From positions 1 through 64,000 of the IMG/VR virus record IMGVR_UViG_3300002092_000035: a stretch of DNA of 64,000 nt; one strand, written 5' to 3'. Positions 24,417 to 42,420 of the stretch are shown here, in pieces. Made by a program: the position numbers and the translations under genes. Every line of letters starts with the position of its first letter. Within the stretch, counting starts at the first letter, position 1. This DNA comes from a virus. The notes under the pieces are model-generated. The model had not been told where the DNA came from, did not search any database, and was given only the letters and a program-made list of their open reading frames with translations.

Positions 24417-24490
24417 TTGACTTTGGGCAGAGTATCATATACATTAAGAAAATAGAGAGAGCAGCGATGTTCTCTCGTTCTTTGACATCG
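24417..24490 (+). promoter_or_regulatory. promoter plus boxB/boxA antitermination-like site
   Basis: TTGACT-N17-TACATT; GAGAGAGCA-GCGA-TGTTCTCTC; GTTCTTTGACATCG. Confidence 0.65.
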
Positions 24491-24575
24491 TTAGAAAATA
24501 ATAAGTCTTACGGTGCTTGTGTCGTTTCCAGGTGCACAAGATTAAAGACGAAGCCGGTTCTCTCCGTCGCCGTTT

Positions 24576-24708
24576 AGACTTATTAAGTGAATGCATCACT
24601 ACGGAGATGTGACCCCGTAGCTCGTTCGTCTAGTTGGCTAGGACACCTGTCACATAGGAGAGATGAGTTCAAAGCTCATACGACACGATGCATTCTCTTA
24701 ATAAGTCT
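24576..24708 (+). ncRNA. long-stem cassette A enclosing a degenerate tRNA-Asp
   Basis: AGACTTATTAAGTGAATGCATC/GATGCATTCTCTTAATAAGTCT. Confidence 0.55.
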
Positions 24709-24935
24709 TGTATGATCTGGTGTTTTTAGGAAGGGAGTTCCTAGTGGCGAATTCTGTCGTTCTGACTAGTGACAGAGAGGATAGGTCAGTATCCTAGGGA
24801 AGTGCAATTCTTCCAAACTCTCTTCTTAAGAACATCATTAGTTGCTGGATTACTATTCTTCGGTGTCCATGGTCTGAAGAGGTGCGTACCAGTAGAGGAT
24901 CCCGGCACCTCTATAAAAACGAGGAAGAATTTACT

Positions 24936-25010
24936 GCTTAAGTAGCTCAGTGGTAGAGCGCGATCCTGAAGAGTTCGGCGTCGGTGGTTCGATCCCATCC
25001 TTAGGCACCA
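24936..25010 (+). tRNA. tRNA-Phe(GAA)
   Basis: Cloverleaf, CCA. Confidence 0.85.
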
Positions 25011-25017
25011 TTACAAT

Positions 25018-25041
25018 GCGAGTATGGCGAAATTGGTAGAC
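25018..25041 (+). pseudogene. 5' remnant of disrupted tRNA-Leu
   Basis: GCGAGTA-TGGCGAAATTGGTAGAC; acceptor partner at 25865-25875. Confidence 0.7.
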
Positions 25042-25084
25042 TAAATGATAAATAAGTGTGTCACCCAATTAAGGATACACTATT

Positions 25085-25756
25085 ATGAATAAAACAGGTC
25101 CCAAAAAAGCAGAACCAATTGTAACAACTGATCTATGTGAATACGGTTGTAACAATACTGCGGCATACAAAAACAAGTCAGGTAAATTGATGTGCGGTCC
25201 GAATGCTGCGTCTTGCCCTGAGATTAAAGAGAAAAATTCAGCAGGCGGCAAAAAAGCATATGCGTCTGCACTCAGACCATCTGCAACAGAAGCATATGAA
25301 ATGTTAAGCGACGATGCCAAATTGAACATGAAATGGAATGCGGGAAAAAGATTCGCAGACTTTTCATATCAAGGCAAAGGTCAGCATAAAAATGCATTAA
25401 TAGCAGAACGCGGATATAAGTGCGAAGGATGCGAACTCACTGAATGGAGAGGTAAACCAATAACATTGGAACTTGAGCACAAAAATGCTGATAGAAAAGA
25501 TAATACAAGAGAAAATCTTGAACTATTATGTCCTAACTGTCATGCTCAAACACCTACTTGGAGACGAGGGTTACAAGGATTGACAAAAGGTTTCAAGAAA
25601 AAAAGATACTCAGATGAAATCATGATTGATGCAATAAAGTCATCGCATACACTTAATGCTGTTTTAGAAAAATTGGATCTACGATATGGTTCAGCTAAGA
25701 CCATAGTTGATCTAATTTCAAAACATAATCTTTCCTTCATGAAAAAAGACGAATAA
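25085..25756 (+). CDS. HNH homing endonuclease
   Basis: CEGC..LELEHKN..N..NLELLCPNCH; paralog of 36962. Confidence 0.88.
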   Translation: MNKTGPKKAEPIVTTDLCEYGCNNTAAYKNKSGKLMCGPNAASCPEIKEKNSAGGKKAYASALRPSATEAYEMLSDDAKLNMKWNAGKRFADFSYQGKGQHKNALIAERGYKCEGCELTEWRGKPITLELEHKNADRKDNTRENLELLCPNCHAQTPTWRRGLQGLTKGFKKKRYSDEIMIDAIKSSHTLNAVLEKLDLRYGSAKTIVDLISKHNLSFMKKDE

Positions 25757-25761
25757 ATTTA

Positions 25762-25846
25762 GGGCATCTGCTGTAATGGTAGCCAGGCTGGTTTTAGAAA
25801 CCAGTGATGTAATGTCGTCTCGGTTCGAGTCCGAGGATGCCCACCA
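25762..25846 (+). tRNA. tRNA-Leu(TAG)
   Basis: Class II cloverleaf, CCA. Confidence 0.9.
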
Positions 25847-25854
25847 AATAAATG

Positions 25855-25875
25855 CGAGTCCCTCTACTCGCACCA
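25855..25875 (+). pseudogene. 3' remnant of disrupted tRNA-Leu
   Basis: CGAGTCCCTC-TACTCGC-ACCA pairs with 25018-25024. Confidence 0.7.
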
Positions 25876-25880
25876 AATAT

Positions 25881-25992
25881 GTCAGAGTAGCCCAAAGTTT
25901 AGACTGTTTCTTAAATATAAGAGGTTTTCTAACAGATAGAGGCAACCGGTATAAAGGTTCCAGTGAAGGTTTGAGTCCTTCCTCTGACACCA
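25881..25992 (+). ncRNA. tRNA-like RNA (Leu-like body, expanded D loop, no canonical anticodon arm)
   Basis: GTCAGAG/CTCTGAC-ACCA, T arm GAAGG-TTTGAGT-CCTTC. Confidence 0.55.
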
Positions 25993-26079
25993 AAATATCC
26001 ACTCGGTTCGAGTCCGAGCTAGGCATGGGGATGGCCTCCTATTGTTGAAGTGCTCACCGGGAGCGGATACTAAATCTAT

Positions 26080-26157
26080 GCCACTCTAGTGTTAGCGGTT
26101 AAAGCACACAAGTTTGTGGAACTTGGCGGGTAGGTTCGAATCCTACGAGTGGTACCA
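26080..26157 (+). tRNA. tRNA-His(GTG), no G-1, A73
   Basis: GCCACTC/GAGTGGT-ACCA preceded by T. Confidence 0.88.
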
Positions 26158-26158
26158 A

Positions 26159-26770
26159 TCAAAGTCTCATCTCAATGAGATGAGGATACTTTTTAGATAG
26201 AGCATCTAGGGTGATGCCTATGAAAGATAATGAAAATATAGAACGAACAGTCTCGATGTTTTCCACACTGTGGTATTGTTTGACATCTAGCCCATACCAT
26301 GATTGATCATTCATTTGGTAGATGCGATCTATCTCAGAACCGGCATATTTCATTTCTCCTGCAGCTAATGCATATCCTTCTTTATCATACTGATTATAAG
26401 TGATAGTCCTTACTTCGGTTCCTCCAGGAGAGAGTATGTAATTCAAAGTAGTGATCCTATACTGATCGGTGTGAGGGGGATATCTTGCTACAATAGAGGT
26501 ATCCTCATTTATTAAGCTTATTCCTCCAACATGTACGGTTTCTTCGAACAGATGACCGTACTCTTTTCTTCCTAACTCAGTCAATTCGCTGCTGCCTAGA
26601 TATGAACAAAATGCTAAGTTTTTTTCATTAGGATAATTACTATAAACCCAATGTCTGACATTGTTTATATAAACCATATCTTCTTCGGTTTTTGGTCTGT
26701 TGGCTATTTGGTTAAGTGACTCAAGTATTTCTTCACTAGGTTTAGGAAGATTCAATTTTAAATAGTTCAT
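26159..26770 (-). CDS. cupin/2OG-Fe(II)-like protein
   Basis: PHTD...HSVEN..R; likely start 26770; similar to 20386. Confidence 0.6.
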   Translation of the reverse strand: MNYLKLNLPKPSEEILESLNQIANRPKTEEDMVYINNVRHWVYSNYPNEKNLAFCSYLGSSELTELGRKEYGHLFEETVHVGGISLINEDTSIVARYPPHTDQYRITTLNYILSPGGTEVRTITYNQYDKEGYALAAGEMKYAGSEIDRIYQMNDQSWYGLDVKQYHSVENIETVRSIFSLSFIGITLDALSKKYPHLIEMRL

Positions 26771-26782
26771 ACAAGTATTTAT

Positions 26783-26866
26783 GCCCCGGTGGTGAAATGG
26801 GAGACACAGCAGACTCAAAATCTGCCGCTGCAAGGCGTGTTGGTTCGAGTCCGACCCGGGGCACCA
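26783..26866 (+). tRNA. tRNA-Leu(CAA)
   Basis: Class II cloverleaf. Confidence 0.92.
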
Positions 26867-26875
26867 AAAGTTTAC

Positions 26876-26910
26876 GGTCCTGTAGCTCAACGGTAGTGCG
26901 GTGTCCTTAA
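26876..26910 (+). pseudogene. 5' half of a truncated tRNA (ends in anticodon loop CTTA)
   Basis: GGTCCTG-TAGCTCAACGGTAGTGC-GGTGTC-CTTAA with no 3' half. Confidence 0.65.
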
Positions 26911-26949
26911 TTCTAATCTAAGATAAATAATCATAGCAGGAGAAATGCC

Positions 26950-27597
26950 ATGATTAGAACAAAATTGCTTTGTGAGAAATGCAACATTGAAATTAGTAAA
27001 TCAAATTTCAAGAAGCATGATTTATCATGCGATGGTCCTAAAATAAAAAAGATTAGAGGAATTGATTTTGATCCTAATCATGGATATAAGAACGGAACAA
27101 GAAAGGCATGGAACTTTGGTCTTACGGATGAAACTGATAAGAGAGTAAAAAGCCTTAACGACAAAGTGAGAGAGACAAAATCCAAGAATGATTATTCGGG
27201 ATGGAATCATTCTGATAAAACAAAAGAAACTCTTTCAATACTAGCTTGTTCTAGGTTAGCAAAGCATTCAAAATATTCTAAGAATGTTGAGTATAAACCA
27301 GGTATAATATTAGAATCTTCTTATGAAGTGAGTGTTGCAGAAATTTTAGATGAATTGAACATAGTGTGGGAAAAAGTAAGGCAAGGATATGTATGGAATG
27401 ATAACGGTAAACGCCGTAGATATATCCCAGATTTTTATATTCCAAAATACAATGTGTTTCTAGACCCAAAAAATGATTACCTGATCAACAAAGATAAGGT
27501 CAAAATAGAAAGTGCAATGGCTATGAATAATATAGTGGTTCACGTTCTATCAGCATCTCAAATTAATCGCGAATACATATCAAGTTTATTTCTGTAG
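26950..27597 (+). CDS. PD-(D/E)XK-type homing endonuclease
   Basis: N-terminal CxxC..H..C, NUMOD-like, ESSYE..YIPDFY..LDPK. Confidence 0.8.
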   Translation: MIRTKLLCEKCNIEISKSNFKKHDLSCDGPKIKKIRGIDFDPNHGYKNGTRKAWNFGLTDETDKRVKSLNDKVRETKSKNDYSGWNHSDKTKETLSILACSRLAKHSKYSKNVEYKPGIILESSYEVSVAEILDELNIVWEKVRQGYVWNDNGKRRRYIPDFYIPKYNVFLDPKNDYLINKDKVKIESAMAMNNIVVHVLSASQINREYISSLFL

Positions 27598-27615
27598 TTT
27601 AACAGTAACGATTTT

Positions 27616-27707
27616 GGACGGGCATCTGGTGGTGGCAAGGGTCTTATAATCCCTTTGGTCAGCTGATTACTGATTTGCTGAGAGTTCGATCCTCTCCCTG
27701 TCTACCA
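27616..27707 (+). tRNA. tRNA-Ile(TAT) with long variable arm
   Basis: GGACGGG/CCTGTCT-ACCA; AGGGT-CTTATAA-TCCCT. Confidence 0.75.
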
Positions 27708-27815
27708 ACATTCACGCTGCCCTGACTGCGAAGAGGGGAACTCGCTACCCGCAAGGGAAAAGTTGGAACAAGACAGCGGGTCCAACAGCGTGACACTATT
27801 TTAGAAAGAGGAAAA

Positions 27816-28046
27816 ATGTCTAGAAAAGCTGATCTAAAGGATGATCTGAATAAGCATACACTGACATATGTCAAGCATACAGTTGAAGAGATTAAAAGGT
27901 TGCGACACTGGTTTGCCGGATTCCAAGCAGCAGGTGGCACCCTTCCGGCATGTGAACAGAGTTTTAGTGCGTTGCACAAAGCACACATTCTGTTAGACGA
28001 CTATGCAAGTTTGATAGAAAAACACAGAAAGCTTGATAAAGACTAG
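27816..28046 (+). CDS. hypothetical protein
   Basis: GAGG RBS. Confidence 0.55.
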   Translation: MSRKADLKDDLNKHTLTYVKHTVEEIKRLRHWFAGFQAAGGTLPACEQSFSALHKAHILLDDYASLIEKHRKLDKD

Positions 28047-28114
28047 CCGATCATCGTTGATCGTGGCATAAATAGTGTCATAGGTTTTGCCTATAACACA
28101 CAGAGAGTCACCCA

Positions 28115-28483
28115 ATGAAAAAAATATTCGTAGCACTAGCAGTGCTATTGTCCATATGGACACCGTCTGTATCCTTTGCTAATCCTAATGAAGGAGTTGA
28201 CAGATATGTTTTCTTACAAAAAACGATTGAACGCAAAGATGTTCGTATAATAGTAGTAACATACAAATCATACGGCGAACTTGAAGCAGCAGTAAGGTCG
28301 CACATCGGTGCTGACCCAAAATATAGTGCTATCAGGGCTCATAGAGTCCAAGCATTCAGCGTCCTTCAGAAGCCCAACTACGATGTATGTACTATTCACA
28401 TGATTGACCCTATCATCTCATATGAGCCTGAATATATAGGACACGAGTTGATGCACTGTGTATACGGTGAATTTCACAAATAA
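28115..28483 (+). CDS. secreted HExxH-containing protein
   Basis: Signal peptide; GHELMHC. Confidence 0.65.
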   Translation: MKKIFVALAVLLSIWTPSVSFANPNEGVDRYVFLQKTIERKDVRIIVVTYKSYGELEAAVRSHIGADPKYSAIRAHRVQAFSVLQKPNYDVCTIHMIDPIISYEPEYIGHELMHCVYGEFHK

Positions 28484-28487
28484 TTAC

Positions 28488-28782
28488 GCGCCGATAGCTC
28501 AATTGGTTAGAGCCGACCGCTTACTGTAATATGTGGGCCTCTATGATGGAAACATTATAGATGTAAGTGATCAAATTCGGGGAACCCTTTCAAATGGCGA
28601 TCCCGAGCCAAGCCCTGCAAAGGGAAGGTGTAGAGACTAGACGGTCACCATCTAAGTCGTAAGATATGATGAAGGTATAGTCCAGACCACAAATCGGTCG
28701 TCTTTTATATGACCGAGTAACGAAAGCTATAGTGGTAAGCATAACGGTCTGGTTGGGGGTTCGAGTCCCTCTCGGCGCACCA
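28488..28782 (+). tRNA. tRNA(CAT), Ile2-like, interrupted by group I intron
   Basis: GCGCCGA/TCGGCGC-ACCA; spliced arm GACCG-CT^CATAA-CGGTC. Confidence 0.85.
28522..28739 (+). mobile_element. group I intron (IC3-like, about 218 nt, no ORF)
   Basis: P AAATTCGGGGAA, Q ATCCCGAGCC, R GTAGAGACTAGACG, S AAGGTATAGTCC, terminal G. Confidence 0.85.
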
Positions 28783-28888
28783 AATATATATACATATGCA
28801 TTTAAGCATAAGTATATATGGGATTTGCTTCCTAATAGGCACGAGATGGGTCACGGTTAGCCCATCACCCTTTAAAAGGATAACAGTA

Positions 28889-29086
28889 ATGAAACAGATT
28901 GACAAAAGTTTTGGATACGGAATCTATCATAACCGAGTAGCGGTCATCCAAGAGAATGGTGACAAATATTTTGTTGATCTGTATCTAGATGAGATCCTTC
29001 ATAGAACAGTTGATGTTTCTGATAGGTCGCTTCGGTATGCAGAAGATACTGCGGAAAATTGGACTACAGGAATAATCAAAGACTAG
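28889..29086 (+). CDS. hypothetical protein
   Basis: AGGA RBS. Confidence 0.55.
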   Translation: MKQIDKSFGYGIYHNRVAVIQENGDKYFVDLYLDEILHRTVDVSDRSLRYAEDTAENWTTGIIKD

Positions 29087-29107
29087 ACACAGAAAACAGG
29101 AGTAATC

Positions 29108-29671
29108 ATGCCCGTATTGGCTTTAGATATCTCAGGTATACCCCGGACTTGGGTTTCACACGATGACGCAATCACCTATCACGCGAAGAATTTAGTAGCT
29201 TGGTCTCTAGGCGATGTAGTTGCTAGATACCGGGGAGGAGTTCAAAAGAATGGTACCCAGAGTTATCTTGAAACTCCGAGCATCATCGCTGTAAAAGGCA
29301 TCGGTTTTGATTTCCGCAAACACAACAGGGTCATATTGACCAACAAGACGCTATTTGCTAGAGATCGTAGCGTCTGTGCTTACTGTGGCAAACATCATTC
29401 TAATCACGCTGGATTGAGTCGCGATCATATCATACCTAGATATCATGGCGGCACAGATGAGTGGATGAATGTTGTTACTTCGTGTAAGCCTTGTAATCAA
29501 AAGAAAGGATGTCTGACGCTGAAACAAGCGAAGATGGAACTGATCTATGTTCCATACGAGCCTAATCACTACGAACATCTGCTCTTACAGAATAGACATG
29601 TTCTCGCTGATCAAATGGATTATCTGCTTGCAGGTGTGCCTAAGCACAGCAGAATTATTTCTATGAACTAG
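29108..29671 (+). CDS. HNH nuclease (McrA-like family)
   Basis: LFARD..CAYCG..DHIIP..GG..W.NVVTSCKPCN.KKG. Confidence 0.88.
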   Translation: MPVLALDISGIPRTWVSHDDAITYHAKNLVAWSLGDVVARYRGGVQKNGTQSYLETPSIIAVKGIGFDFRKHNRVILTNKTLFARDRSVCAYCGKHHSNHAGLSRDHIIPRYHGGTDEWMNVVTSCKPCNQKKGCLTLKQAKMELIYVPYEPNHYEHLLLQNRHVLADQMDYLLAGVPKHSRIISMN

Positions 29672-29696
29672 ATTACTTGATTAAATATCTCTATGA

Positions 29697-29771
29697 TGGA
29701 CAATAGTTCAATGGTAGAATCCCGCACTGTTAATGCGGTTGTTGTAGGTTCGAGTCCTACTTGTCCAGCCA
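29697..29771 (+). tRNA. tRNA-Asn(GTT)
   Basis: Cloverleaf. Confidence 0.9.
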
Positions 29772-29775
29772 ATTT

Positions 29776-30093
29776 TTACTTTCTGCTTTGTAGAAGTTTA
29801 TGTATGTCGTTATGAAGGTCTTTGATTTCTGTTAATTCTTGCATGATCATCCGATGATCTTCTTCTGCTCTTTTTTCAGATTTCTCACTATTCACTGATT
29901 GACCTACCATGATTATGCTTAGTAGAACTAGTTGTAAGAATGTCTGAGCTATCCATGTGATGAGTGTTGCTACTCCCCCGTGGATAGCTGCAGGCAGACT
30001 TACCATCGCTAGTAGCGTAAATGCATAGGCACACCACATTGTTCCGACAATGTTGGTAACGATAGTAGCAAGTTTTTTATTGAAGTTTTCCAT
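29776..30093 (-). CDS. small membrane protein (DUF1003-like)
   Basis: VGTMWCAY..QLVLLSIIMVGQ. Confidence 0.7.
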   Translation of the reverse strand: MENFNKKLATIVTNIVGTMWCAYAFTLLAMVSLPAAIHGGVATLITWIAQTFLQLVLLSIIMVGQSVNSEKSEKRAEEDHRMIMQELTEIKDLHNDIHKLLQSRK

Positions 30094-30143
30094 ATGTATC
30101 TCACTTTTTAATATTTATCATGCAGTGAGATATATACTAGTAT

Positions 30144-30219
30144 GCCCGTATGGCACAGCTGGTAGCGCGCCACACTTGTAATGTGGAGGTCCGGGGTTCG
30201 AACCCTCGTGCGGGCACCA
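30144..30219 (+). tRNA. tRNA-Thr(TGT)
   Basis: Cloverleaf. Confidence 0.92.
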
Positions 30220-30222
30220 TAC

Positions 30223-30298
30223 GTCTCCATAGCTCAGTGGATAGAGCAACAGCCTTCTAAGCTGTGGGTCGCAGGTTCGAATCCTGCTGGGGATGCCA
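30223..30298 (+). tRNA. tRNA-Arg(TCT)
   Basis: Cloverleaf. Confidence 0.92.
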
Positions 30299-30349
30299 GT
30301 TTATATTTCGTGATGCTGTTGCATCGCTAAATATCTTGTAAAGTTTAAC

Positions 30350-30425
30350 GGGGAATTAGCTCATTTGGTAGAGCGTCTGATTTGCATTCAGAAGGTGAGC
30401 GGTTCGATCCCGCTATTCTCCACCA
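30350..30425 (+). tRNA. tRNA-Ala(TGC)
   Basis: Cloverleaf, G3-U70. Confidence 0.92.
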
Positions 30426-30435
30426 AACATTATAT

Positions 30436-30513
30436 CGGGGATTAGCTCAGTCTGGCCAGAGCATTCCGTTTGGGACGGAAGGGTCGTAGGTTCGAATCCT
30501 ACATTCCCGACCA
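30436..30513 (+). tRNA. tRNA-Pro(TGG)
   Basis: Cloverleaf. Confidence 0.92.
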
Positions 30514-30575
30514 TTTATTAGATACCGACCAAATTTAAGAATTAGCACACTGCTTGGATATAGTATAAATAAATC

Positions 30576-32504: not shown

Positions 32505-32525
32505 GTAAAATATCTTCACCGGCAA

Positions 32526-32753
32526 ATGGCAATACAGATACGACAGCTTAAAGAATGGAAAGGATACAATTCCTTTACCGTTCCCATTGTATTTGGAATT
32601 CCTATCCCTGACCAAAACGATGTAAATCTATTGAAATCTCAGTATCCAGGAAACTATCATGTTCTGCTGACAACAATCGGAAATTCCTTTGAGAATTGTA
32701 TCGTGTTTGATGATCCAACAGAAGAATCGTTTTTTATATTGAAGTATCTATAG
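32526..32753 (+). CDS. small protein related to the 48.6-50.5 kb paralog family
   Basis: C-terminus VFDDPTEESFFILKYL. Confidence 0.55.
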   Translation: MAIQIRQLKEWKGYNSFTVPIVFGIPIPDQNDVNLLKSQYPGNYHVLLTTIGNSFENCIVFDDPTEESFFILKYL

Positions 32754-32768
32754 ACGATAAGTATTATC

Positions 32769-35055: not shown

Positions 35056-35114
35056 AAATATATTGATCAGGCTGTTTGAGCGTAAATATCAATACAAACT
35101 TAATGAGAGGCTAA

Positions 35115-36299: not shown

Positions 36300-36307
36300 A
36301 ATATTAT

Positions 36308-36382
36308 GCCCGGTTAGCGCAGCGGTAGAGCGTCTGGTTTACATCCAGAATGTCGGCGGTTCAATCCCGTCACCGGGTACCA
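36308..36382 (+). tRNA. tRNA-Val(TAC)
   Basis: Cloverleaf. Confidence 0.92.
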
Positions 36383-36431
36383 TTTCTTTTAATATTAGCA
36401 TAAATATAATCTCTTACAGAAAGGTACTACA

Positions 36432-36824
36432 TTGGCTTTATTTCACAAACATCTCATCGTCCGTGCAGAAGTAAACGAACCAATCACGTGTCCTCAAACG
36501 GTATCTAAGATATGGATGCCAGCATTGATTGACCGTATTGGTATGAAGATTCTTATGGGACCTTATGCTGTTTATAGTGAGATGGAGGGCAATCGTGGAC
36601 TTACCTGTGCTACGATCATTGAAACTAGTCATATCGTGATGCACATCTGGGACGAGATTAGCCCTGCGACGGTTCAATTAGATGTCTATACTTGCGGTCC
36701 TTTAGACCCGTATGCTGTAGTAGAGTCACTCAAGGAAATGGACCCAGTCCACATTGACATGAAGTATCTTGATCGTGAACATGACCTGATCGACCTGCCT
36801 GTTCCTGTTGAGTTTGAAGATTAA
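36432..36824 (+). CDS. speD: S-adenosylmethionine decarboxylase proenzyme
   Basis: HLI, IIETSHIVMHIW, DVYTC. Confidence 0.8.
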   Translation: MALFHKHLIVRAEVNEPITCPQTVSKIWMPALIDRIGMKILMGPYAVYSEMEGNRGLTCATIIETSHIVMHIWDEISPATVQLDVYTCGPLDPYAVVESLKEMDPVHIDMKYLDREHDLIDLPVPVEFED

Positions 36825-36836
36825 TTAAAAAAAGAC

Positions 36837-36901
36837 TTGACATCCATTATATAATGTCGTAAGATGAGGACAGTTGAGAGATCAACTGTTCTTTGACATC
36901 G
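36837..36901 (+). promoter_or_regulatory. promoter plus boxB/boxA antitermination-like site
   Basis: TTGACA-N17-TAAGAT; ACAGTTGA-GAGA-TCAACTGT; GTTCTTTGACATCG. Confidence 0.7.
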
Positions 36902-36961
36902 TTAAATATTTTAACTGAAAAGTTTGTCTACCAAGCATAAATACATAATAGGAGAATTGTT

Positions 36962-37558
36962 ATGTATTGTGATTATGGCTGCGGACAGCCTTCTCAGTAT
37001 CTGCTTAAGAATGGTAAAAAATGCTGTTCTAAACGACCTTCAGGTTGCCCAGAGATAAAAAAGAAAAATTCTATTTCTACCAAAAAAGCATACGAAGTAG
37101 GGGCGAGACCATCTGCAAAAGATTCATACTTATTATTGAGTGAAAATGCTAAAGCTAGCATGAATTGGAATAAAGAAAATTATTCTTCAACTGAATTTGA
37201 ATACGGTGGACCAGGGAGTCACAAAAAAGCCTTGATCAAGGAACGAGGTCATAAATGTGAAGGTTGTGGATTGACCCGATGGCAGGAATCAATAATTCCT
37301 CTAGAATTAGAACACATCGACGGTGACAACAGAAATAACATAAAAGAAAACCTTAAGTTACTATGTTGTAATTGTCACGCTCTGACTTCTACCTGGCGAG
37401 GAAGAAATATTAATACAGGAAAAATTAAGGTCAGTGACGAAGAACTATTGACAGCATTAAAAGAGTGTAGTAGTATACGAAAGGCCCTACAAAAAGTAGG
37501 ACTTACTCCTAAAGGAGGAAATTATATTAGAGCGAATAAGTTAAAGATGCGCCTGTAG
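36962..37558 (+). CDS. HNH homing endonuclease
   Basis: LELEHIDG..N..NLKLLCCNCH; stop lies inside tRNA-Leu(TAA). Confidence 0.88.
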   Translation: MYCDYGCGQPSQYLLKNGKKCCSKRPSGCPEIKKKNSISTKKAYEVGARPSAKDSYLLLSENAKASMNWNKENYSSTEFEYGGPGSHKKALIKERGHKCEGCGLTRWQESIIPLELEHIDGDNRNNIKENLKLLCCNCHALTSTWRGRNINTGKIKVSDEELLTALKECSSIRKALQKVGLTPKGGNYIRANKLKMRL

Positions 37559-37625
37559 CCCAACCGGCAGAGGCCACAGACTTAAAATCTGTCAAGTATG
37601 AGTTCGAATCTCATCAGGCGCACCA
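37549..37625 (+). tRNA. tRNA-Leu(TAA), short variable arm
   Basis: ACAGA-CTTAAAA-TCTGT, 77 nt. Confidence 0.85.
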
Positions 37626-37666
37626 AACTTATTATACGACTTTGATCATTTAGACGAAAGGAAAAA

Positions 37667-37906
37667 ATGTTCTATGAAAAATGTGCTGAATTACTCGGCA
37701 CCACATATGAATGTAAACCTTTTCCCTACTGTCGACCTACTCGGTGGAACAATCGTTCTCCTGGGCAAGGTAGATATCCGGGCTTCGGTCAGATACGAAA
37801 ATTTGGTAACGGATTCTATGTCTCACTCAGACATCCAATCTCGCATCAAAAATACTATCGGCTAGAAGATGAAGTGTTTGCATTTCTCAGAGGTTTATCA
37901 TTGTGA
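37667..37906 (+). CDS. hypothetical protein
   Basis: AGGA RBS. Confidence 0.55.
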   Translation: MFYEKCAELLGTTYECKPFPYCRPTRWNNRSPGQGRYPGFGQIRKFGNGFYVSLRHPISHQKYYRLEDEVFAFLRGLSL

Positions 37907-37907
37907 T

Positions 37908-37997
37908 AAACTTATTAGATGAATACACTTACTTATATTTTAACGGCCCTACAAGGCACGGGCGTATAAGAGCAGAGTGTATTCTTCTAACAAGTTT
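37908..37997 (+). ncRNA. long-stem cassette B
   Basis: AAACTTATTAGATGAATACAC/GTGTATTCTTCTAACAAGTTT. Confidence 0.55.
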
Positions 37998-37999
37998 AT

Positions 38000-38076
38000 G
38001 GTCCCTTAGATTACGCTGGCTAGATCGCTACCCTTTCAAGGTAGAGGAACGGGATCGACACCCGTAGGGACTACCA
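38000..38076 (+). tRNA. tRNA-Glu(TTC)
   Basis: Cloverleaf. Confidence 0.88.
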
Positions 38077-38081
38077 ATAAC

Positions 38082-38165
38082 GGGGTAGAAGCATCAAGGT
38101 GATGCCGGGGACTGTAAATCCCCCGTCTTCGGACATGCCTGGTTCGATTCCAGGATACCCCACCA
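38082..38165 (+). tRNA. tRNA-Tyr(GTA)
   Basis: Class II cloverleaf. Confidence 0.88.
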
Positions 38166-38170
38166 ATTAT

Positions 38171-38286
38171 GTGTCATCCTTAGGGAAGTGAATACGATGT
38201 CAAAAATCCTGGCCGGATCGGAAGTGGCGCCCCACTTGGGTCTTGACATTAAGTAGCTTTTGTGGTAACGCACAAATGACACACCA
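38171..38286 (+). ncRNA. tRNA-like RNA with acceptor stem and CCA
   Basis: GTGTCAT/ATGACAC-ACCA with a long internal stem. Confidence 0.5.
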
Positions 38287-38299
38287 ATGATGCGATTTT

Positions 38300-38334
38300 G
38301 GACATGCCTGGTTCGATTCCAGGATACCCCACCA
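38300..38334 (+). repeat. exact 35-bp duplicate of the tRNA-Tyr 3' end
   Basis: Identical to 38131-38165. Confidence 0.9.
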
Positions 38335-38375
38335 TTTTTTTAAGAGTAACAGTAACAAAAACTAAATATCTATAT

Positions 38376-38465
38376 GGAGAGGTACTCAAGTGGTTTACGA
38401 GACTGGTCTTGAAAACCAGCGAGGATGAAAGTCCTCCGTGGGTTCGAATCCCACCCTCTCCGCCA
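38376..38465 (+). tRNA. tRNA-Ser(TGA)
   Basis: Class II cloverleaf. Confidence 0.92.
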
Positions 38466-38473
38466 ATGTTAAT

Positions 38474-38548
38474 GCGGGTATCGTATAGTGGTTATTACGT
38501 GGCCTTGCCAAGGCTAGGAGGAGGGTTCGATTCCCTCTACCCGCTCCA
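38474..38548 (+). tRNA. tRNA-Gly(GCC)
   Basis: Cloverleaf, U73. Confidence 0.92.
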
Positions 38549-38555
38549 ATTTTAT

Positions 38556-38647
38556 GGAGAGTTGCCAGAGTGGCCGAATGGGCTGGTTTGCTAAACCATT
38601 GTACCCCTCAAAGGGTACCGAGGGTTCGAATCCCTCACTCTCCGCCA
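38556..38647 (+). tRNA. tRNA-Ser(GCT)
   Basis: Class II cloverleaf. Confidence 0.92.
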
Positions 38648-38664
38648 ATACACAGGTTGACATT

Positions 38665-39009
38665 ATGAACTTTGAGATAGATCCGGAATTTATAACATCC
38701 ATCTCTGTAGTGACAGAGTATCATCGTGCTAAGGATCCTGCTAATCCAACCCCAGAAGAATTTATGGCCATCATAAAAGATGGACCCGTAAGAAGCACTT
38801 CTTACTCAACTGTAGATCATCCTGAATACGATAAGTTAAGGAATAATCTCGGAGACCTCGGTTATATAAAGATTGAGCGTATGTGGTGGAACGGCGATCG
38901 GGTCCTAAAAAGATTTACATTGAATGGAATCCCGTTCAAAAAGGATGATCAATTTAGCTGTGCTAGCGCGATGAAGCATCATCTAGAATACAAGAGAAAA
39001 TATAAATAG
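38665..39009 (+). CDS. hypothetical protein
   Basis: Likely start 38665. Confidence 0.6.
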   Translation: MNFEIDPEFITSISVVTEYHRAKDPANPTPEEFMAIIKDGPVRSTSYSTVDHPEYDKLRNNLGDLGYIKIERMWWNGDRVLKRFTLNGIPFKKDDQFSCASAMKHHLEYKRKYK

Positions 39010-39263
39010 ACACACTTACACAGAGGATACACACATGAATAAGTCACATTTACCAGCAATGCTGGCCACAAGTTTATTGCTATTCGTATTAGCATCAAAC
39101 GCATATGTCATCTATATGACATACAAACATCCTGATTGGATGGTTCTCACTTACACATTGCCTCCCATCACTTAATTTAAAAAAGGTCATTTTTCGGTTG
39201 ACTTCGGGTATTCGGTTTGCTATATTGAATCATAGACAGACACACACAAACGGAGTTACTCAG

Positions 39264-39611
39264 ATGGCTTATATGAATTCCGAAAAGAAGGCAATCATCG
39301 CTTCTAACTTGAAGCCTGTTCTTAAGAAGTTCGGTGTTAAAGGCAGCCTTTCAGTAGACCATCACTCAAGCATCGTGCTGACTCTCAAGTCCGGCAAGAT
39401 TGAGTTTGGCTCTGATCGTCAGCAAGTGAATCCTTACTGGTTCCACGAGCATTACGATGGTGTTGCTAAGGAGTTTCTGACCGAAGCATTTGCTGCTCTC
39501 AAGAGTGCAGGCTGGTACAACAATACTCGTTCAGAAATTGACTATTTTGACATCGCTTACTATGTTGACATCAACATCGGTAAGTGGAACAAGCCCTATC
39601 AATTTATTTAA
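39264..39611 (+). CDS. hypothetical early protein
   Basis: GGAG RBS after early promoter; NTRSEIDYFDIAYY motif. Confidence 0.7.
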   Translation: MAYMNSEKKAIIASNLKPVLKKFGVKGSLSVDHHSSIVLTLKSGKIEFGSDRQQVNPYWFHEHYDGVAKEFLTEAFAALKSAGWYNNTRSEIDYFDIAYYVDINIGKWNKPYQFI

Positions 39612-39626
39612 TTTAAGGAACATAAA

Positions 39627-39821
39627 ATGGGACTATCTACAGACTATCTCAATGCTGACCCTCTCTACAGACGGGCCCGGCAACTAGGTAACAGGCATGA
39701 CCGGCCTTCTTTTGAAATTCAGCCGGGCGGAAGGATACATCCTCTTGTCACTGTTGCTATTTGGGCAGTGATCGTTCTAAGCACTGGTATCGGTGCCGCG
39801 ATGTATGCCTCAAAACTTTAG
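39627..39821 (+). CDS. small membrane protein
   Basis: C-terminal hydrophobic helix. Confidence 0.5.
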   Translation: MGLSTDYLNADPLYRRARQLGNRHDRPSFEIQPGGRIHPLVTVAIWAVIVLSTGIGAAMYASKL

Positions 39822-39827
39822 AATAAT

Positions 39828-39909
39828 GCGCCGGTGGCAGATCGGTAATGCGGTGGACTGCAAATCCACTCCGAAAGGGTAGTAGGTTCAATTCCTATCC
39901 GGCGCTCCA
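39828..39909 (+). tRNA. tRNA-Cys(GCA)
   Basis: Cloverleaf with small extra arm, U73. Confidence 0.88.
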
Positions 39910-40007
39910 ACTATATATCGGTACCGATTGAAGTCACCTGATGACATAGGGCGGATCGGTTAAAAGAATGCATGTGTGACTGCCGATACCGTTGCATTGA
40001 AGATTAT

Positions 40008-40083
40008 ACCTGCGTAGCTCAGTGGTAGTAGCATCGTGCTGATAACACGAAGGTCGGTAGTTCAACTCTACCCGCAGGTACCA
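40008..40083 (+). tRNA. tRNA-Ile(GAT)
   Basis: Cloverleaf. Confidence 0.9.
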
Positions 40084-40090
40084 ATTCTAA

Positions 40091-40126
40091 GGGTTATAGG
40101 CTCTCCGGCTGAGCATACGACTTTAA
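40091..40126 (+). pseudogene. degenerate 5' half of a tRNA-Lys
   Basis: GGGTTAT..GCTC..GAGC-ATACGA-CTTTAA. Confidence 0.5.
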
Positions 40127-40175
40127 GTTAAATGCTCTAATAGGTATAAATATCAATGCACAACGGAGCATTGAT

Positions 40176-40751
40176 ATGGATAATAGAAAAAAACCCAAGA
40201 CTGAAAAATGGCTTAAGGCTATGGCAGATCGAAGGGGCAATGGAGCTAATCAATATACTAAAGCCAAAGCATTAGGAAACCCAAAACCAGAATTGACTGC
40301 CGAACAAATACAAAAAAGAAAAAACAGTCATACAGGAAAAACTCATACAGAAGAAACTAAAGATAAAATAAGAATCAGTCGTTTAGCATTCCTGCAAGAA
40401 AACCCACACATGGTTCCTTATAAGCTGAATCACTACTCAAAAGGAAGATCATATCCTGAAGAATACTGGAAAGCGGTGCTAGATTCAAACAACTTAATTT
40501 ACGAAGAACAATATCAGATAGGAATATATCAACTAGATTTTGCCTTTGTTGATTTGAAAATAGATTTAGAGATTGATGGCGATCAGCATTATTTAGATCA
40601 ACGGATAGCTGCTAGTGATATTAGAAGAACCAAATATCTTGAAGAATTGGGATGGAAAACGATAAGAGTAAGATGGTCAAACTATAAGAAACTAGCAGAT
40701 AAAAAACAGTTTGTTGATGAAATTGTAAAAGCATTGAGTATGGGCTCGTAG
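40176..40751 (+). CDS. DUF559/Vsr-like homing endonuclease with NUMOD3
   Basis: SYPE..YQLDFA..LEIDGDQH..D..R..L..LGW..IR; stop lies inside tRNA-Lys. Confidence 0.85.
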   Translation: MDNRKKPKTEKWLKAMADRRGNGANQYTKAKALGNPKPELTAEQIQKRKNSHTGKTHTEETKDKIRISRLAFLQENPHMVPYKLNHYSKGRSYPEEYWKAVLDSNNLIYEEQYQIGIYQLDFAFVDLKIDLEIDGDQHYLDQRIAASDIRRTKYLEELGWKTIRVRWSNYKKLADKKQFVDEIVKALSMGS

Positions 40752-40826
40752 GAGAATTGGTAAACCCAGCAGACTTTTAATCTGCCGCGAGAGCATCTGT
40801 CGGTTCGAGTCCGACCGAGCCCACCA
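40742..40826 (+). tRNA. tRNA-Lys(TTT) with class II-like body
   Basis: GCAGA-CTTTTAA-TCTGC plus extra arm. Confidence 0.85.
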
Positions 40827-40844
40827 AAAACTTAAAGGTGAACG

Positions 40845-41240
40845 ATGAAACATAAACTTTACTGTATTTTCGCAGACGAATCTGTTAAGAAAATGAACGG
40901 TATCAGGGGAAAAATGTGTACCCAGGCAGGCCACGCATATGTTCACTCAATATGGGATGCATTCGCACCAAGTTTCAACTTGATCAAAATGTTTCGTAAA
41001 ATCAAACAGGCGTATGCTTATAAACACAGTGAACGTGCATACAAAATCACGCTGAGGATATCCACTGTGGATGAGCTTAAAGCTCTCCAGGAAAAGTACC
41101 GAGACATTTGTGGTACCAGTCTGGTAACGGATGCAGGTTTCACCGTGTTTGCTGAGCCGACTACTACTTGTCTTGGAATTGGTCCAATACGAGAAGATAA
41201 AATCGGTGACGATCTAAAGGCACTAAAAACGTTTACTTAA
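40845..41240 (+). CDS. peptidyl-tRNA hydrolase, Pth2 family
   Basis: GKMCTQAGHA, KITL, DAGFT, TCLGIGP. Confidence 0.88.
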   Translation: MKHKLYCIFADESVKKMNGIRGKMCTQAGHAYVHSIWDAFAPSFNLIKMFRKIKQAYAYKHSERAYKITLRISTVDELKALQEKYRDICGTSLVTDAGFTVFAEPTTTCLGIGPIREDKIGDDLKALKTFT

Positions 41241-41241
41241 T

Positions 41242-41318
41242 GATGGGATAGCTCAGTTGGTCAGAGCGCAGGTCTCATACGCCTGATGTCGAAGGTTCAA
41301 ATCCTTCTCCCATCACCA
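41242..41318 (+). tRNA. tRNA-Met(CAT) elongator
   Basis: Cloverleaf with paired 1-72. Confidence 0.85.
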
Positions 41319-41326
41319 AACTATAT

Positions 41327-41403
41327 GGCTCCTGGGTCTGCATGGTGAAGACACCCGCCTGTCACGCGGGAGATGAGGGGATCGTTACCCCTAGGAGCCG
41401 CCA
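41327..41403 (+). tRNA. tRNA-Asp(GTC)
   Basis: Cloverleaf, G73. Confidence 0.88.
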
Positions 41404-41477
41404 ATTTTAATACCCAAAACAGTTTACTCTCATGAGAGAGTGTACTATAATAAGAAAATCAGAGATAAGGAAATCAC

Positions 41478-42044
41478 ATGAAGATCACTCTACGCAAGGC
41501 CAACGCAATTCAAGTAGCTGTCAACGATGCTATCAAGGGTCTTGACTTTAATTCTGTTGTTCACATCAATGAGTTTCAGACTCCTGATGCAGAGATCAAT
41601 GCACTTGCAACTAAGTTTGCAGATAATCTTGTTCGCCGGAATAGTTTGCTTGACGCCCTTTACGAGATTCGTAAGGCAGTCGCATCGGCAAATGATAGCA
41701 ACGGGATTGATGTTCGCCTAGCTGATGTCGCTCGTTTTGAGAAGGACTTACAGTTCTATAGCACCCACGCAAAGGGGTCTGTAATGACAGATTCTAATGT
41801 GATCGCTGGCAAGCTGGATAAGCTTCGTAACCGTAAGGAAGAATCTTATGGCTACGGACGAGACGCTACAATTGACACTTCAATCTTTACAACAGCACTA
41901 CTTGAATCCTTTAAGGGTATCGTCGTTGCTGCTAAGAAGGCAAAGCAGAAGTTACAGGATGAACTCCTTGAGTTGAACGTCCGCACTGAGATTGAGTTCT
42001 CGGCTGCTACAGTCGCGACACTCACAAAGGAAGGCATCCTTTAA
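41478..42044 (+). CDS. helical coiled-coil protein
   Basis: MKITLRKANAIQ...LQDELLELNVRTEI. Confidence 0.7.
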   Translation: MKITLRKANAIQVAVNDAIKGLDFNSVVHINEFQTPDAEINALATKFADNLVRRNSLLDALYEIRKAVASANDSNGIDVRLADVARFEKDLQFYSTHAKGSVMTDSNVIAGKLDKLRNRKEESYGYGRDATIDTSIFTTALLESFKGIVVAAKKAKQKLQDELLELNVRTEIEFSAATVATLTKEGIL

Positions 42045-42087
42045 AGTTTGGTAGTTAGACCCCTCGCAGTGGGGGTAAATTGCCCGG

Positions 42088-42318
42088 AAGAGAAAAGAGA
42101 GATTAGAATAGACACCCGTTCCAATTAAATTGGAACCAGCATCCGAAGCTCTTGAAAAGCTTCTCGCTAGTATGATCTAACCGTATTTTGTTGCATATTG
42201 TGGTTGAGAAATACACTGGCTTATTGTAGATTGTTCTTTGTTGATTGTTTGGTAGGTTGTTCTTGTACGAGACACCGATGCAGTTTGCACAGTCTATCAC
42301 TTGCTCTTTTCTTTTTCG
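42088..42318 (+). ncRNA. putative structured RNA with NTTGTNN heptamer repeats
   Basis: Purine arm GAAGAGAAAAGAG..ATAGAC pairs with GTCTAT..CTCTTTTCTTTTTC; internal repeats. Confidence 0.5.
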
Positions 42319-42349
42319 TAATTATTTTTAAAAAAGTTGAAAATAGTTC

Positions 42350-42420
42350 TTGACATTGGTATGAGGACTATATATAATAAGAAAATAAGAGATGAGAAAT
42401 CATCTTCGCTCTTTGAAATT
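42350..42420 (+). promoter_or_regulatory. promoter plus boxB/boxA antitermination-like site
   Basis: TTGACA-N17-TATAAT; AGATGA-GAAA-TCATCT; GCTCTTTGAAATT. Confidence 0.7.

What the first reader, a model, noticed from the sequence alone, without database searches (positions are those of the whole stretch)
24417..42420. Three tRNA-operon promoters carry rRNA-type boxB/boxA antitermination sites
Seen at 24417, 36837 and 42350: a sigma70 promoter with 17-nt spacer, then a GNRA-capped hairpin (GCGA, GAGA, GAAA), then GTTCTTTGACATCG, GTTCTTTGACATCG or GCTCTTTGAAATT. Known: boxB-then-boxA is the rrn leader order that loads NusB/E/A/G-SuhB; lambda nut has the reverse order. Inference: the phage hijacks host rrn antitermination to transcribe long untranslated tRNA arrays past Rho. 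This complements the attenuator on the first operon.
Basis: partly seen in the sequence, partly recalled or inferred. Interest (0 to 1): 0.72.

Follow-up and report, generated by a model that had tools for sequence, protein, structure and literature searches.

The report
Ribosomal-type antitermination leaders on phage tRNA genes
Three early promoters in the tRNA region of an uncultured freshwater T4-like phage are each followed by a small RNA hairpin and a copy of the "boxA" signal that bacteria use to keep RNA polymerase transcribing ribosomal RNA, so the phage probably borrows the host's rRNA antitermination machinery to express its untranslated tRNA and small-RNA genes.

Summary
At 24417, 36837 and 42350 (+ strand) a sigma70-type promoter with a 17-nt spacer is followed by a 7-9 bp hairpin with a GNRA loop. 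Then, -1 to 1 nt on, comes G(T/C)TCTTTGA(C/A)AT. A covariance model finds only these three sites in the 91-kb contig, and the ~17 strong promoters that lead straight into ORFs lack the module.

The module recurs in 25 further instances in related uncultured phages. Every one has an upstream promoter. The stems covary (7/7 pairs, with G·U wobbles), and 26 of all 28 have same-strand tRNA genes within 1.5 kb.

The boxA plus its 3' flank matches real rRNA-operon leaders of Sphingomonadales at 17-18 of 19 nt. It has G at position 8, as do 31/31 alphaproteobacterial leaders, whereas 16/16 Burkholderiales leaders have A. Some relatives carry the Burkholderiales type, so the phage boxA appears to follow the host.

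Best reading (0.72): an rrn-type NusB/NusE loading site that protects untranslated phage RNA genes from Rho. Binding and antitermination are inferred, not shown. The regular GNRA hairpin is a phage feature, not a copy of host boxB.

I found no published account. I rate it a new variant of a known kind.

The parts
24417..24445 (+). Site 1 promoter, TTGACT-17 nt-TACATT (9/12 to consensus). It lies 31 nt after tRNA-Ser.
   Evidence: The promoter is kept in the orthologous loci L064, L076, L196 and L197.
24455..24476 (+). Site 1 leader hairpin, 9 bp including one G.U, GCGA tetraloop. Its 3' end abuts boxA (gap 0).
24477..24495 (+). Site 1 boxA plus flank, GTTCTTTGACATCGTTAGA.
   Evidence: Matches an Erythrobacter rrn leader at 18/19 nt.
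24496..24935 (+). Site 1 first cargo: a highly structured untranslated stretch of long stems enclosing a tRNA-like element. tRNA-Phe follows at 24936-25010.
   Evidence: the fold of 24452-24940 gives z = -5.5. for the tRNA.
36837..36865 (+). Site 2 promoter, TTGACA-17 nt-TAAGAT (10/12), preceded by an A-tract.
36871..36888 (+). Site 2 leader hairpin, 7 bp, GAGA tetraloop. It starts about at the predicted transcript 5' end. Its last G is also boxA G.
36888..36906 (+). Site 2 boxA plus flank, GTTCTTTGACATCGTTAAA.
36962..37558 (+). HNH homing-endonuclease ORF lying between the site 2 leader and tRNA-Leu(taa) at 37549-37625. It is absent from the ortholog L157, where tRNA-Leu starts 28 nt after the module, so it is a secondary insertion.
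   Evidence: PHROG HNH endonuclease, 1.8e-29.
42350..42378 (+). Site 3 promoter, TTGACA-17 nt-TATAAT (12/12), preceded by an A-tract.
42389..42406 (+). Site 3 leader hairpin, 7 bp including one G.U, GAAA tetraloop; 1 nt gap to boxA.
42408..42426 (+). Site 3 boxA plus flank, GCTCTTTGAAATTGTAGAA.
   Evidence: Matches Sphingomonadales and other alphaproteobacterial rrn leaders at 17/19 nt.
42431..42611 (+). Site 3 first cargo: a long hairpin RNA (42431-42522), then the 5' part of a conserved RNA that starts GGGGGCATAGCC. The GIY-YIG ORF (42612-43295), tRNA-Met (43451-43529) and tRNA-Gly (43537-43610) follow.
   Evidence: the fold of 42385-42615 gives z = -5.7..

Best explanation
Each site is a compact, rRNA-operon-type leader for the host Nus-factor antitermination machinery, placed at phage early promoters that drive untranslated RNA genes.

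Proposed mechanism:
1. Host sigma70 RNA polymerase starts at the promoter.
2. The first ~20-25 nt of the transcript fold into a stable GNRA-capped hairpin.
3. The next 12 nt are a boxA with the residues that matter for NusB/NusE (S10) binding: G2, C5 and U6.
4. Host NusB-NusE binds boxA. [quoted passage not shown]
5. With NusA and NusG (and possibly SuhB/S4) this converts the polymerase into the processive form used on rRNA operons. That form resists Rho and assists RNA folding.
6. The polymerase can then run through tRNA genes, small structured RNAs and interspersed ORFs without ribosome cover.

Shown here:
- The sequence architecture and its restriction to these promoters.
- Its conservation, with covarying stems, in related phages.
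- Its linkage to tRNA/ncRNA genes.
- Its near-identity to real alphaproteobacterial rrn leader boxA.

Inferred: Nus-factor binding, antitermination, and the identity of the host (probably an alphaproteobacterium of the Sphingomonadales type).
For: Architecture and statistics.

Restriction within the contig:
- Only three hits of model R1 in 91 kb.
- None of the other strong promoters has the module; about 17 of them lead directly into RBS+ATG.

Conservation:
- 28 modules were examined in the window and related IMG/VR contigs. All have an upstream sigma70-like promoter.
- 26 of 28 have same-strand tRNAs within 1.5 kb, and several have the first tRNA 16-70 nt after boxA.

The hairpin is an RNA element:
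- 7/7 pairs show compensatory changes and 91% of cells are paired; 0 of 500 shuffles reach this.
- Slid controls give 17-48% paired.
- G.U wobbles are present.

boxA:
- It is nearly invariant (G Y T C T T T R A) across the modules.
- It keeps G2, C5 and U6, the positions reported as critical for NusB-NusE binding (PMC3177189).
- It fits the published consensus GYTCTTTAANA except for G at position 8 (PMC5725501).
- Position 8 is G in 31/31 alphaproteobacterial rrn leaders sampled here and A in 16/16 Burkholderiales leaders.
- The window's three sites match Sphingomonadales rrn leaders at 17-18 of 19 nt.

Host tracking: relatives L033 and L045 carry the Burkholderiales type at 16/19. This includes the rare T5-to-A variant, seen in a Rhodoferax leader.

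Spacing: the hairpin-to-boxA gap is -1 to 4 nt in the 13 tetraloop modules with stems of at least 5 bp. [quoted passage not shown]

Precedent: B. subtilis rrn transcripts are reported to begin with a small 5' hairpin immediately followed by a boxA-like sequence that binds NusB (PMC13753749).

Other phage lineages: the exact 17-mer GTTCTTTGACATCGTTA lies inside same-strand tRNA arrays in 15 of 30 IMG/VR loci that contain it.
Against: - There is no experimental or expression evidence; no RNA run holding this DNA was listed.
- The host is unknown, so 'host boxA' is an inference from sequence matching.
- The first and largest tRNA cluster (from 23069) is driven by a promoter without the module. 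boxA is therefore not required for every tRNA unit.
- The units contain translated ORFs, so they are not long purely untranslated arrays.
- One orthologous module (L155/L156) has A in place of the critical G2. At site 2, G2 is paired in the stem.
- No clear boxC was found.
- In E. coli, boxB contributes little to rrn antitermination (PMC12360218), and the bacterial leaders sampled show no regular GNRA hairpin next to boxA. The strict conservation of the phage hairpin therefore needs an extra explanation.
- More distant large relatives carry only one module or none detectable with this model.
Confidence: 0.72

Rival explanations
1. A phage-specific nut-like site. boxA recruits host NusB/E, while the strictly kept GNRA hairpin (consensus ..GA-GARA-UC..) is bound by a phage-encoded N-like or other RNA-binding protein that supplies or tunes antitermination. 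This would be a hybrid of the lambda and rrn systems, not plain mimicry of the rrn leader.
For: - The loop and its closing A-U pair are almost invariant while the rest of the stem covaries freely.
- 13 of about 17 distinct tetraloop-type hairpins are GNRA, mostly GAGA or GAAA.
- Bacterial rrn leaders sampled here have no such regular hairpin.
- boxB matters little for rrn antitermination in E. coli.
- In lambda a GNRA-like boxB loop is the N-binding element (PMC3177189).
Against: - No candidate protein was identified, and the contig is only about 25% of the genome.
- The boxB-boxA order is the rrn order, not the lambda order.
- Some modules have non-GNRA loops (TAAA, AACTA, 6-8 nt loops) or no hairpin at all.
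- GNRA loops are simply very stable.
- A sequence-independent dsRNA dock on NusB-NusE would explain a stem without any phage factor.
Confidence: 0.13
2. The hairpin is mainly a 5'-terminal stabiliser or processing signal (protection from 5'-end-dependent RNase attack, or a defined end for processing). The boxA-like run has a role other than Nus loading, for example pairing with a trailer to make a processing stem.
For: - The hairpin starts 0-4 nt from the predicted transcript start.
- At site 3 the minimum-energy fold pairs boxA with a downstream segment.
- Long stems flank the downstream RNAs.
Against: - The same 12-19 nt sequence is kept in front of unrelated downstream sequences, so it cannot be maintained by pairing with them.
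- It equals the rrn leader boxA of real bacteria and switches type in step with bacterial clades.
Confidence: 0.07
3. A Nus-dependent negative control element of the suhB type: boxA-bound Nus factors repress translation of the next ORF (the homing endonucleases) and thereby promote Rho termination.
For: boxA can stimulate Rho termination in some contexts (PMC5725501; PMC12360218). At site 2 the HNH ORF starts 62 nt after boxA.
Against: In most relatives no ORF follows the module; tRNA or ncRNA genes do. The HNH ORF is absent from the ortholog L157.
Confidence: 0.03
4. A DNA-level operator (an inverted repeat bound by a repressor) next to a chance or inherited sequence remnant of a captured host rrn leader, with no RNA function.
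For: The inverted repeats lie just downstream of the promoters.
Against: - The stems differ between sites in one genome.
- G.U wobbles keep RNA pairing but not DNA symmetry.
- The motif is conserved across many diverged phages and in several copies.
Confidence: 0.03

Closest known systems
rRNA operon (rrn) leader antitermination site: boxB-boxA-boxC with NusB/NusE/NusA/NusG/SuhB/S4
   Same: - Same order of parts: promoter, hairpin, then boxA within a few nucleotides. In E. coli rrnH a repeat GCGAC..GTCGC ends 4 nt before TGCTCTTTAACAA.
- boxA sequence identical or nearly identical to alphaproteobacterial rrn leaders.
- The cargo is untranslated structured RNA, partly enclosed in long stems.
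   Different: - It sits on a phage and drives tRNA/small-RNA genes mixed with ORFs.
- The leader is compressed. boxA starts about 15-25 nt from the predicted start, against 100 nt or more of leader before boxA in the Erythrobacter operon.
- The hairpin has a conserved GNRA loop.
- No boxC was recognised.
- The segment between the -10 element and the start is A/T-rich.
Bacillus subtilis rrn leaders (small 5'-terminal hairpin immediately followed by boxA-like AUGAUCUUUGAAA; PMC13753749)
   Same: A 5'-terminal small hairpin directly abutting boxA. The G-at-position-8 type of boxA (..CUUUGA..). One phage relative (L017) even has GATCTTTGACAAT.
   Different: It is a bacterial rRNA operon of a different phylum. 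No GNRA regularity is reported for it.
Lambda nut sites (boxA-spacer-boxB with N protein)
   Same: A phage uses host NusB/E through boxA, and a GNRA-type hairpin is part of the site.
   Different: The order is reversed. No N-like protein is known here. The phage is T4-like rather than lambdoid. The cargo is RNA genes rather than delayed-early mRNAs.
BoxA leaders of bacterial CRISPR arrays (Stringer et al. 2020, eLife; cited in PMC13753749, paper itself not held here)
   Same: The same logic: a boxA placed before a long untranslated multi-gene RNA array to prevent Rho termination.
   Different: Cellular CRISPR arrays rather than phage tRNA/ncRNA genes. I could not read the paper, so the comparison rests on its title and on my own knowledge.
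HK022 put RNA
   Same: A promoter-proximal phage RNA element that makes the polymerase termination-resistant (PMC12360218).
   Different: put acts directly on the polymerase without Nus factors, and it has a two-hairpin structure with no boxA.

Membership tests
rrn-type Nus-factor antitermination leader | boxA matching the NusB/NusE consensus, including G2, C5 and U6 | tested here: met
   All three sites read G-Y-U-C-U-U-U-G-A. Published consensus GYTCTTTAANA. Critical positions as given. Position 8 is G, as in 31/31 alphaproteobacterial rrn leaders.
rrn-type Nus-factor antitermination leader | The sequence equals the boxA actually used in rRNA operon leaders of a plausible host group | tested here: met
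   18/19, 17/19 and 17/19 identity to Sphingomonadales rrn leaders lying 180-260 nt before the 16S gene, against 13/19 to Burkholderiales. The host itself is unknown.
rrn-type Nus-factor antitermination leader | Lies on the sense strand in the transcribed leader just after a promoter | tested here: met
   Predicted sigma70 promoters at 9-12 of 12 with 17-nt spacers; 22-31 nt separate the -10 element from boxA. The promoter is kept in all 28 modules. The promoters are predicted, not mapped.
rrn-type Nus-factor antitermination leader | Hairpin (boxB position) 5' of boxA | tested here: met
   Covariation in 7/7 pairs. The gap to boxA is -1 to 4 nt wherever the called stem is at least 5 bp.
rrn-type Nus-factor antitermination leader | boxC element downstream of boxA | tested here: inconclusive
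   No shared G/U-rich element was seen after the three sites by eye. The sequences downstream are unrelated to each other.
rrn-type Nus-factor antitermination leader | Cargo is untranslated structural RNA | tested here: met
   tRNA or ncRNA genes follow in 26 of 28 modules. In the window, homing-endonuclease ORFs are interposed at sites 2 and 3.
rrn-type Nus-factor antitermination leader | Binds NusB-NusE and suppresses Rho-dependent termination | not testable with these tools
   Needs binding assays and reporter assays.
Lambda-type nut site | Order boxA-spacer-boxB | tested here: not met
   The hairpin precedes boxA at all sites.
Lambda-type nut site | Phage N-like arginine-rich antiterminator binding the hairpin loop | not tested
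   No search for such a protein was made. The contig is about 25% of the genome.
suhB-type BoxA repression element | boxA within about 50 nt upstream of the start codon of the regulated gene | tested here: not met
   At sites 1 and 3 no ORF starts within 190 nt. At site 2 the HNH ORF starts 62 nt on, but the ortholog L157 lacks it.

The most novel reading that the evidence does not exclude
The invariant GNRA hairpin is the docking site of a so-far unidentified phage protein, an N-like antiterminator or a regulator. These modules would then be compact nut sites in rrn order that let a T4-like phage switch Nus-dependent antitermination of its RNA genes on or off. In parallel, the boxA part is host-matched closely enough to serve as a host-prediction marker for uncultured tRNA-rich phages.
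Probability: 0.13. Interest if true: 0.8.

Novelty: new variant of a known kind. Interest (0 to 1): 0.62.

Why it matters
- Use of Nus factors by phages is textbook for lambdoid phages, where it needs the phage N protein. Cellular boxA was long thought to serve rRNA only, and was later extended to suhB, ribosomal-protein genes and CRISPR arrays.
- A conserved rrn-like leader at the RNA-gene promoters of a large clade of uncultured T4-like phages would show a second, N-independent way in which phages tap this machinery.
- It would also explain how phage tRNA and small-RNA clusters, which have no ribosome cover, might escape Rho.
- The phage boxA switches between the alphaproteobacterial (G8) and the Burkholderiales (A8) type, and copies the 3' flank of host leaders. 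It could therefore become a simple sequence marker for assigning hosts to tRNA-rich metagenomic phages.
- The module is small (about 35 nt) and easy to test in reporters.

Tried and rejected
- Rfam, at E-value threshold over 16000-46000, gave no family for the leaders or the downstream structured RNAs. It found only tRNAs and one group I intron.
- Cultured relatives. Megablast of 8 kb against GenBank phages found only tRNA-Ser pieces. tblastn with two phage ORFs found no cultured relative. The NAMPT gene gives at best 62% identity, to freshwater Synechococcus phages B3/B23, and B3 has no module.
- RNAalifold on unanchored 49-mers gave no structure because MAFFT misaligned stems of different lengths. 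I then anchored on the loop. That choice favours pairing, so the slid controls and wobble pairs matter more than the shuffle count.
- The genome-wide scan for the 17-mer in 185,579 species gave 72 hits, about the chance number. Only a few of them are rrn leaders.
- A 14-mer count over 301 alphaproteobacterial genomes was only weakly enriched, 18 against 8 control hits. Draft genomes often lack rRNA operons, so I fetched leaders through 16S matches instead.
- Locus L267 belongs to an unpublished genome (G044).
- GYTCTTTRAMA in T4, T5, KVP40, Sphingomonas phage PAU and Caulobacter phage phiCbK occurs at background level and never near tRNAs.
- No NusB or S10 gene was found in the contig (the contig is about 25% complete).
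- No RNA holder was listed among sequencing runs, so no reads were laid.
- A promoter reading of the TTGACA inside boxA was rejected: no -10 element lies at the right spacing at any site.

Full report
**What is there**

The window is the first 64 kb of a 91,154-bp viral contig with 42% G+C, estimated about 25% complete. Sequencing runs that hold it are mostly freshwater and lake metagenomes. It carries 32 tRNA genes between 17.7 and 43.6 kb, all on the + strand. Interspersed with them are HNH, GIY-YIG and DUF559 homing endonucleases and auxiliary genes: radical SAM, sugar-nucleotide enzymes, AdoMet decarboxylase, PTH2.

Each has three parts:
- A sigma70-type promoter with a 17-nt spacer, scoring 9/12, 10/12 and 12/12 to consensus.
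- A 7-9 bp hairpin capped by GCGA, GAGA or GAAA. It begins 0-4 nt from the predicted transcript start.
- G(T/C)TCTTTGA(C/A)AT, lying -1 to 1 nt after the stem.

**Is it more than chance?**

- The exact 12-mer pattern occurs three times against 0.11 expected. With one mismatch allowed it is not significant.
- A >=6-bp stem with a GNRA tetraloop is found in 0.125% of random 30-nt windows of this genome, yet at all three sites.
- A covariance model of hairpin plus boxA (R1), run without filters on the whole contig, finds only these three sites at 33.6-46.7 bits. The next hit scores 15.9 bits, E 0.13, in coding sequence.
- Among 55 promoter-like sites scoring at least 10/12, none of the others carries the module; about 17 of them run directly into a ribosome-binding site and ATG.

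**Conservation**

- Loci around homologues of two neighbouring ORFs, and loci containing the 17-mer, were fetched from IMG/VR.
- Twenty-eight modules were examined, three in the window and 25 in relatives. Every one has a sigma70-like promoter upstream.
- Twenty-six of the 28 have same-strand tRNA genes within 1.5 kb. In L008, L160, L157, L201, L200, L005 and L041 the first tRNA starts 16-70 nt after boxA.
- Most relatives have no ORF of 60 codons or more starting within 600 nt.
- The ortholog of site 2 in L157 has tRNA-Leu(taa) 28 nt after the module. In the window the same tRNA is 649 nt away, and the difference is the HNH ORF. The endonuclease is therefore a later insertion into an RNA-gene leader.
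- At site 3 the relatives show boxA followed directly by a conserved RNA that starts GGGGGCATAGCC. In the window a long hairpin has been inserted before it, and its 3' part is replaced by the GIY-YIG gene.

**The hairpin acts as RNA**

Fifteen hairpins were aligned on their loops. All seven stem pairs show compensatory changes and 91% of cells are paired. Sliding the partner by one to three columns drops pairing to 17-48%. Several pairs are G.U. I chose the register by maximising pairing, which inflates the shuffle statistic. The wobble pairs and the different stems within one genome still argue for RNA structure and against a DNA operator.

Loops are GAGA, GAAA, GCGA or GCAA in 13 of about 17 distinct tetraloop hairpins, with an almost invariant A-U closing pair. 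The exceptions are TAAA, AACTA, longer loops, and one module with no hairpin.

**boxA is an authentic rrn boxA**

- The published gammaproteobacterial consensus is GYTCTTTAANA (PMC5725501). G2, C5 and U6 are the residues whose change abolishes NusB-NusE binding (PMC3177189). The phage sites keep all of these and differ only by G at position 8.
- A scan of one genome per species for the 17-mer GTTCTTTGACATCGTTA gave a chance-level number of hits. Two of them, in Erythrobacter and Qipengyuania, are rRNA-operon leaders with the 16S gene 254 nt downstream. A Novosphingobium leader reads GCTCTTTGACATTGTAG, one mismatch from site 3 over 17 nt.
- I then collected leaders through 16S matches. Position 8 is G in 31/31 leaders from Sphingomonadales and other Alphaproteobacteria, and A in 16/16 leaders from Burkholderiales.
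- Over 19 nt (boxA plus flank) the three window sites match Sphingomonadales leaders at 18, 17 and 17 positions. They match Burkholderiales leaders at 13.
- Relatives L010 and L200 match other alphaproteobacterial leaders at 18/19.
- L033 and L045 match Burkholderiales leaders at 16/19. L033's rare GTTCATTAAAAAT variant is also seen in a Rhodoferax leader.
- The phage boxA therefore appears to follow the host. The window phage probably infects an alphaproteobacterium. This is an inference.

**Mechanism**

A boxA in the nascent RNA recruits NusB-NusE. With NusA, NusG and further factors this makes the polymerase processive and Rho-resistant on rRNA operons and at lambda nut sites (PMC12360218).

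[quoted passage not shown] That fits a stem ending -1 to 4 nt before boxA. B. subtilis rrn transcripts are reported to start with a small hairpin immediately followed by a NusB-binding boxA-like sequence (PMC13753749).

The E. coli rrnH leader fetched here has the same order: promoter, inverted repeat, 4 nt, boxA.

The downstream regions at sites 1 and 3 are strongly structured and untranslated (z = -5.5 and -5.7). This is the kind of RNA that lacks ribosome protection.

I therefore read the modules as portable rrn-type antitermination leaders for phage RNA genes. No NusB or S10 gene is present in the contig, so host factors are assumed.

**What does not fit neatly**

- The first tRNA cluster has a promoter without the module.
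- ORFs are mixed into the units.
- One ortholog has A at G2 (L155).
- No boxC was recognised.
- Bacterial leaders show no regular GNRA hairpin next to boxA, and boxB is reported to matter little for E. coli rrn antitermination.
- The phage-specific, sequence-conserved hairpin is thus the least explained part. It leaves room for a phage factor (rival 1) or a 5'-end stabilising role (rival 2).

**Distribution and novelty**

- The exact 17-mer lies inside same-strand tRNA arrays in 15 of 30 IMG/VR loci that contain it. In several other phage lineages it sits 1-5 nt after a tRNA 3' end.
- T4, T5, KVP40, Sphingomonas phage PAU and Caulobacter phage phiCbK show no such motif near their tRNA genes.
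- Full-text searches for boxA together with phage tRNA genes, tRNA operons or phage-encoded tRNAs returned nothing relevant.
- The nearest published parallel is boxA before CRISPR arrays (Stringer et al. 2020, cited; the paper was not readable here).
- I rate this a new variant of a known kind. It is well supported at sequence level and untested functionally.

**Earlier notes of this scan**

They told me that the contig is a T4-like giant phage with many metagenomic relatives. They also noted a leader-peptide element before the first tRNA cluster, small RNAs with handle stems, and endonuclease-tRNA cassettes in this stretch. I used them as leads only.

Noticed in passing
L212 / L215 (Escherichia phage T5, NC_005859, - strand 4978-4988 and 116509-116519, terminal repeats): A hairpin GGCGG..CCGCC is followed 2 nt later by GCTCTTTAAAAAT, a perfect match to GYTCTTTAANA. 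It lies on the - strand, the strand of the annotated dmp gene (124-858), in the first-step-transfer (pre-early) region, with no tRNA genes nearby. This may be a boxB/boxA-type leader in T5.
   Followed up: no
window 42541-42611; L006, L010-L012, L017, L025, L195: A conserved RNA of 100 nt or more, starting GGGGGCATAGCC, follows the module directly in relatives (alignment A4, some compensatory pairs). In the window only its 5' part survives. The rest is replaced by the GIY-YIG endonuclease gene, and the 3' half is not found elsewhere in the window.
   Followed up: partly
L059, L061, L073, L074, L080 (IMG/VR contigs of other phage lineages): The exact 17-mer GTTCTTTGACATCGTTA sits between tRNA genes, 1-5 nt after a tRNA 3' end and about 14 nt before the next tRNA, without promoter or hairpin. 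The arrangement resembles the spacer boxA of rRNA operons.
   Followed up: partly
L033, L045, L041 versus the window; rrn leaders L220-L290: The phage boxA type follows bacterial clades. Position 8 is G in Alphaproteobacteria and A in Burkholderiales, and rare variants such as GTTCATT and GATCTTT occur in both phage modules and bacterial rrn leaders. This suggests a possible host-prediction marker.
   Followed up: partly
window 28513-28698: Group I intron (Rfam RF00028, 61.4 bits, above the gathering score) between two short ORFs, next to an HNH endonuclease gene.
   Followed up: no
window 17697-17771 and 23241-23315: A tRNA with a CUA (amber-reading) anticodon lies upstream of the main cluster. 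A further tRNA at 23241-23315 was found by Rfam (40.8 bits) but not by ARAGORN.
   Followed up: no
L106, L110, L120, L141 (four Streptomyces genomes): A conserved TTGACA-containing stretch is followed about 30 nt later by GTTCTTTGACATCGTTA in all four. It may be a boxA leader of a conserved actinobacterial transcription unit.
   Followed up: no
L275, L287 (Burkholderiales rrn leaders): The 3' end of a tRNA gene lies immediately before the rrn leader boxA, so a tRNA-then-boxA arrangement also exists in bacteria.
   Followed up: no
window 24494-24712, 42431-42522, 43322-43450: Long stems with similar arm sequences (..AGATGAATRC.. pairing with ..GYATTCT..) enclose unrelated interiors after sites 1 and 3 and before tRNA-Met. 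They look like processing stems around small RNAs, as in rRNA precursors.
   Followed up: partly
window 42408-42415 with about 42550-42560: In the minimum-energy fold, the boxA of site 3 pairs with a segment of the downstream conserved RNA. This may be chance or a leader-trailer type helix.
   Followed up: no
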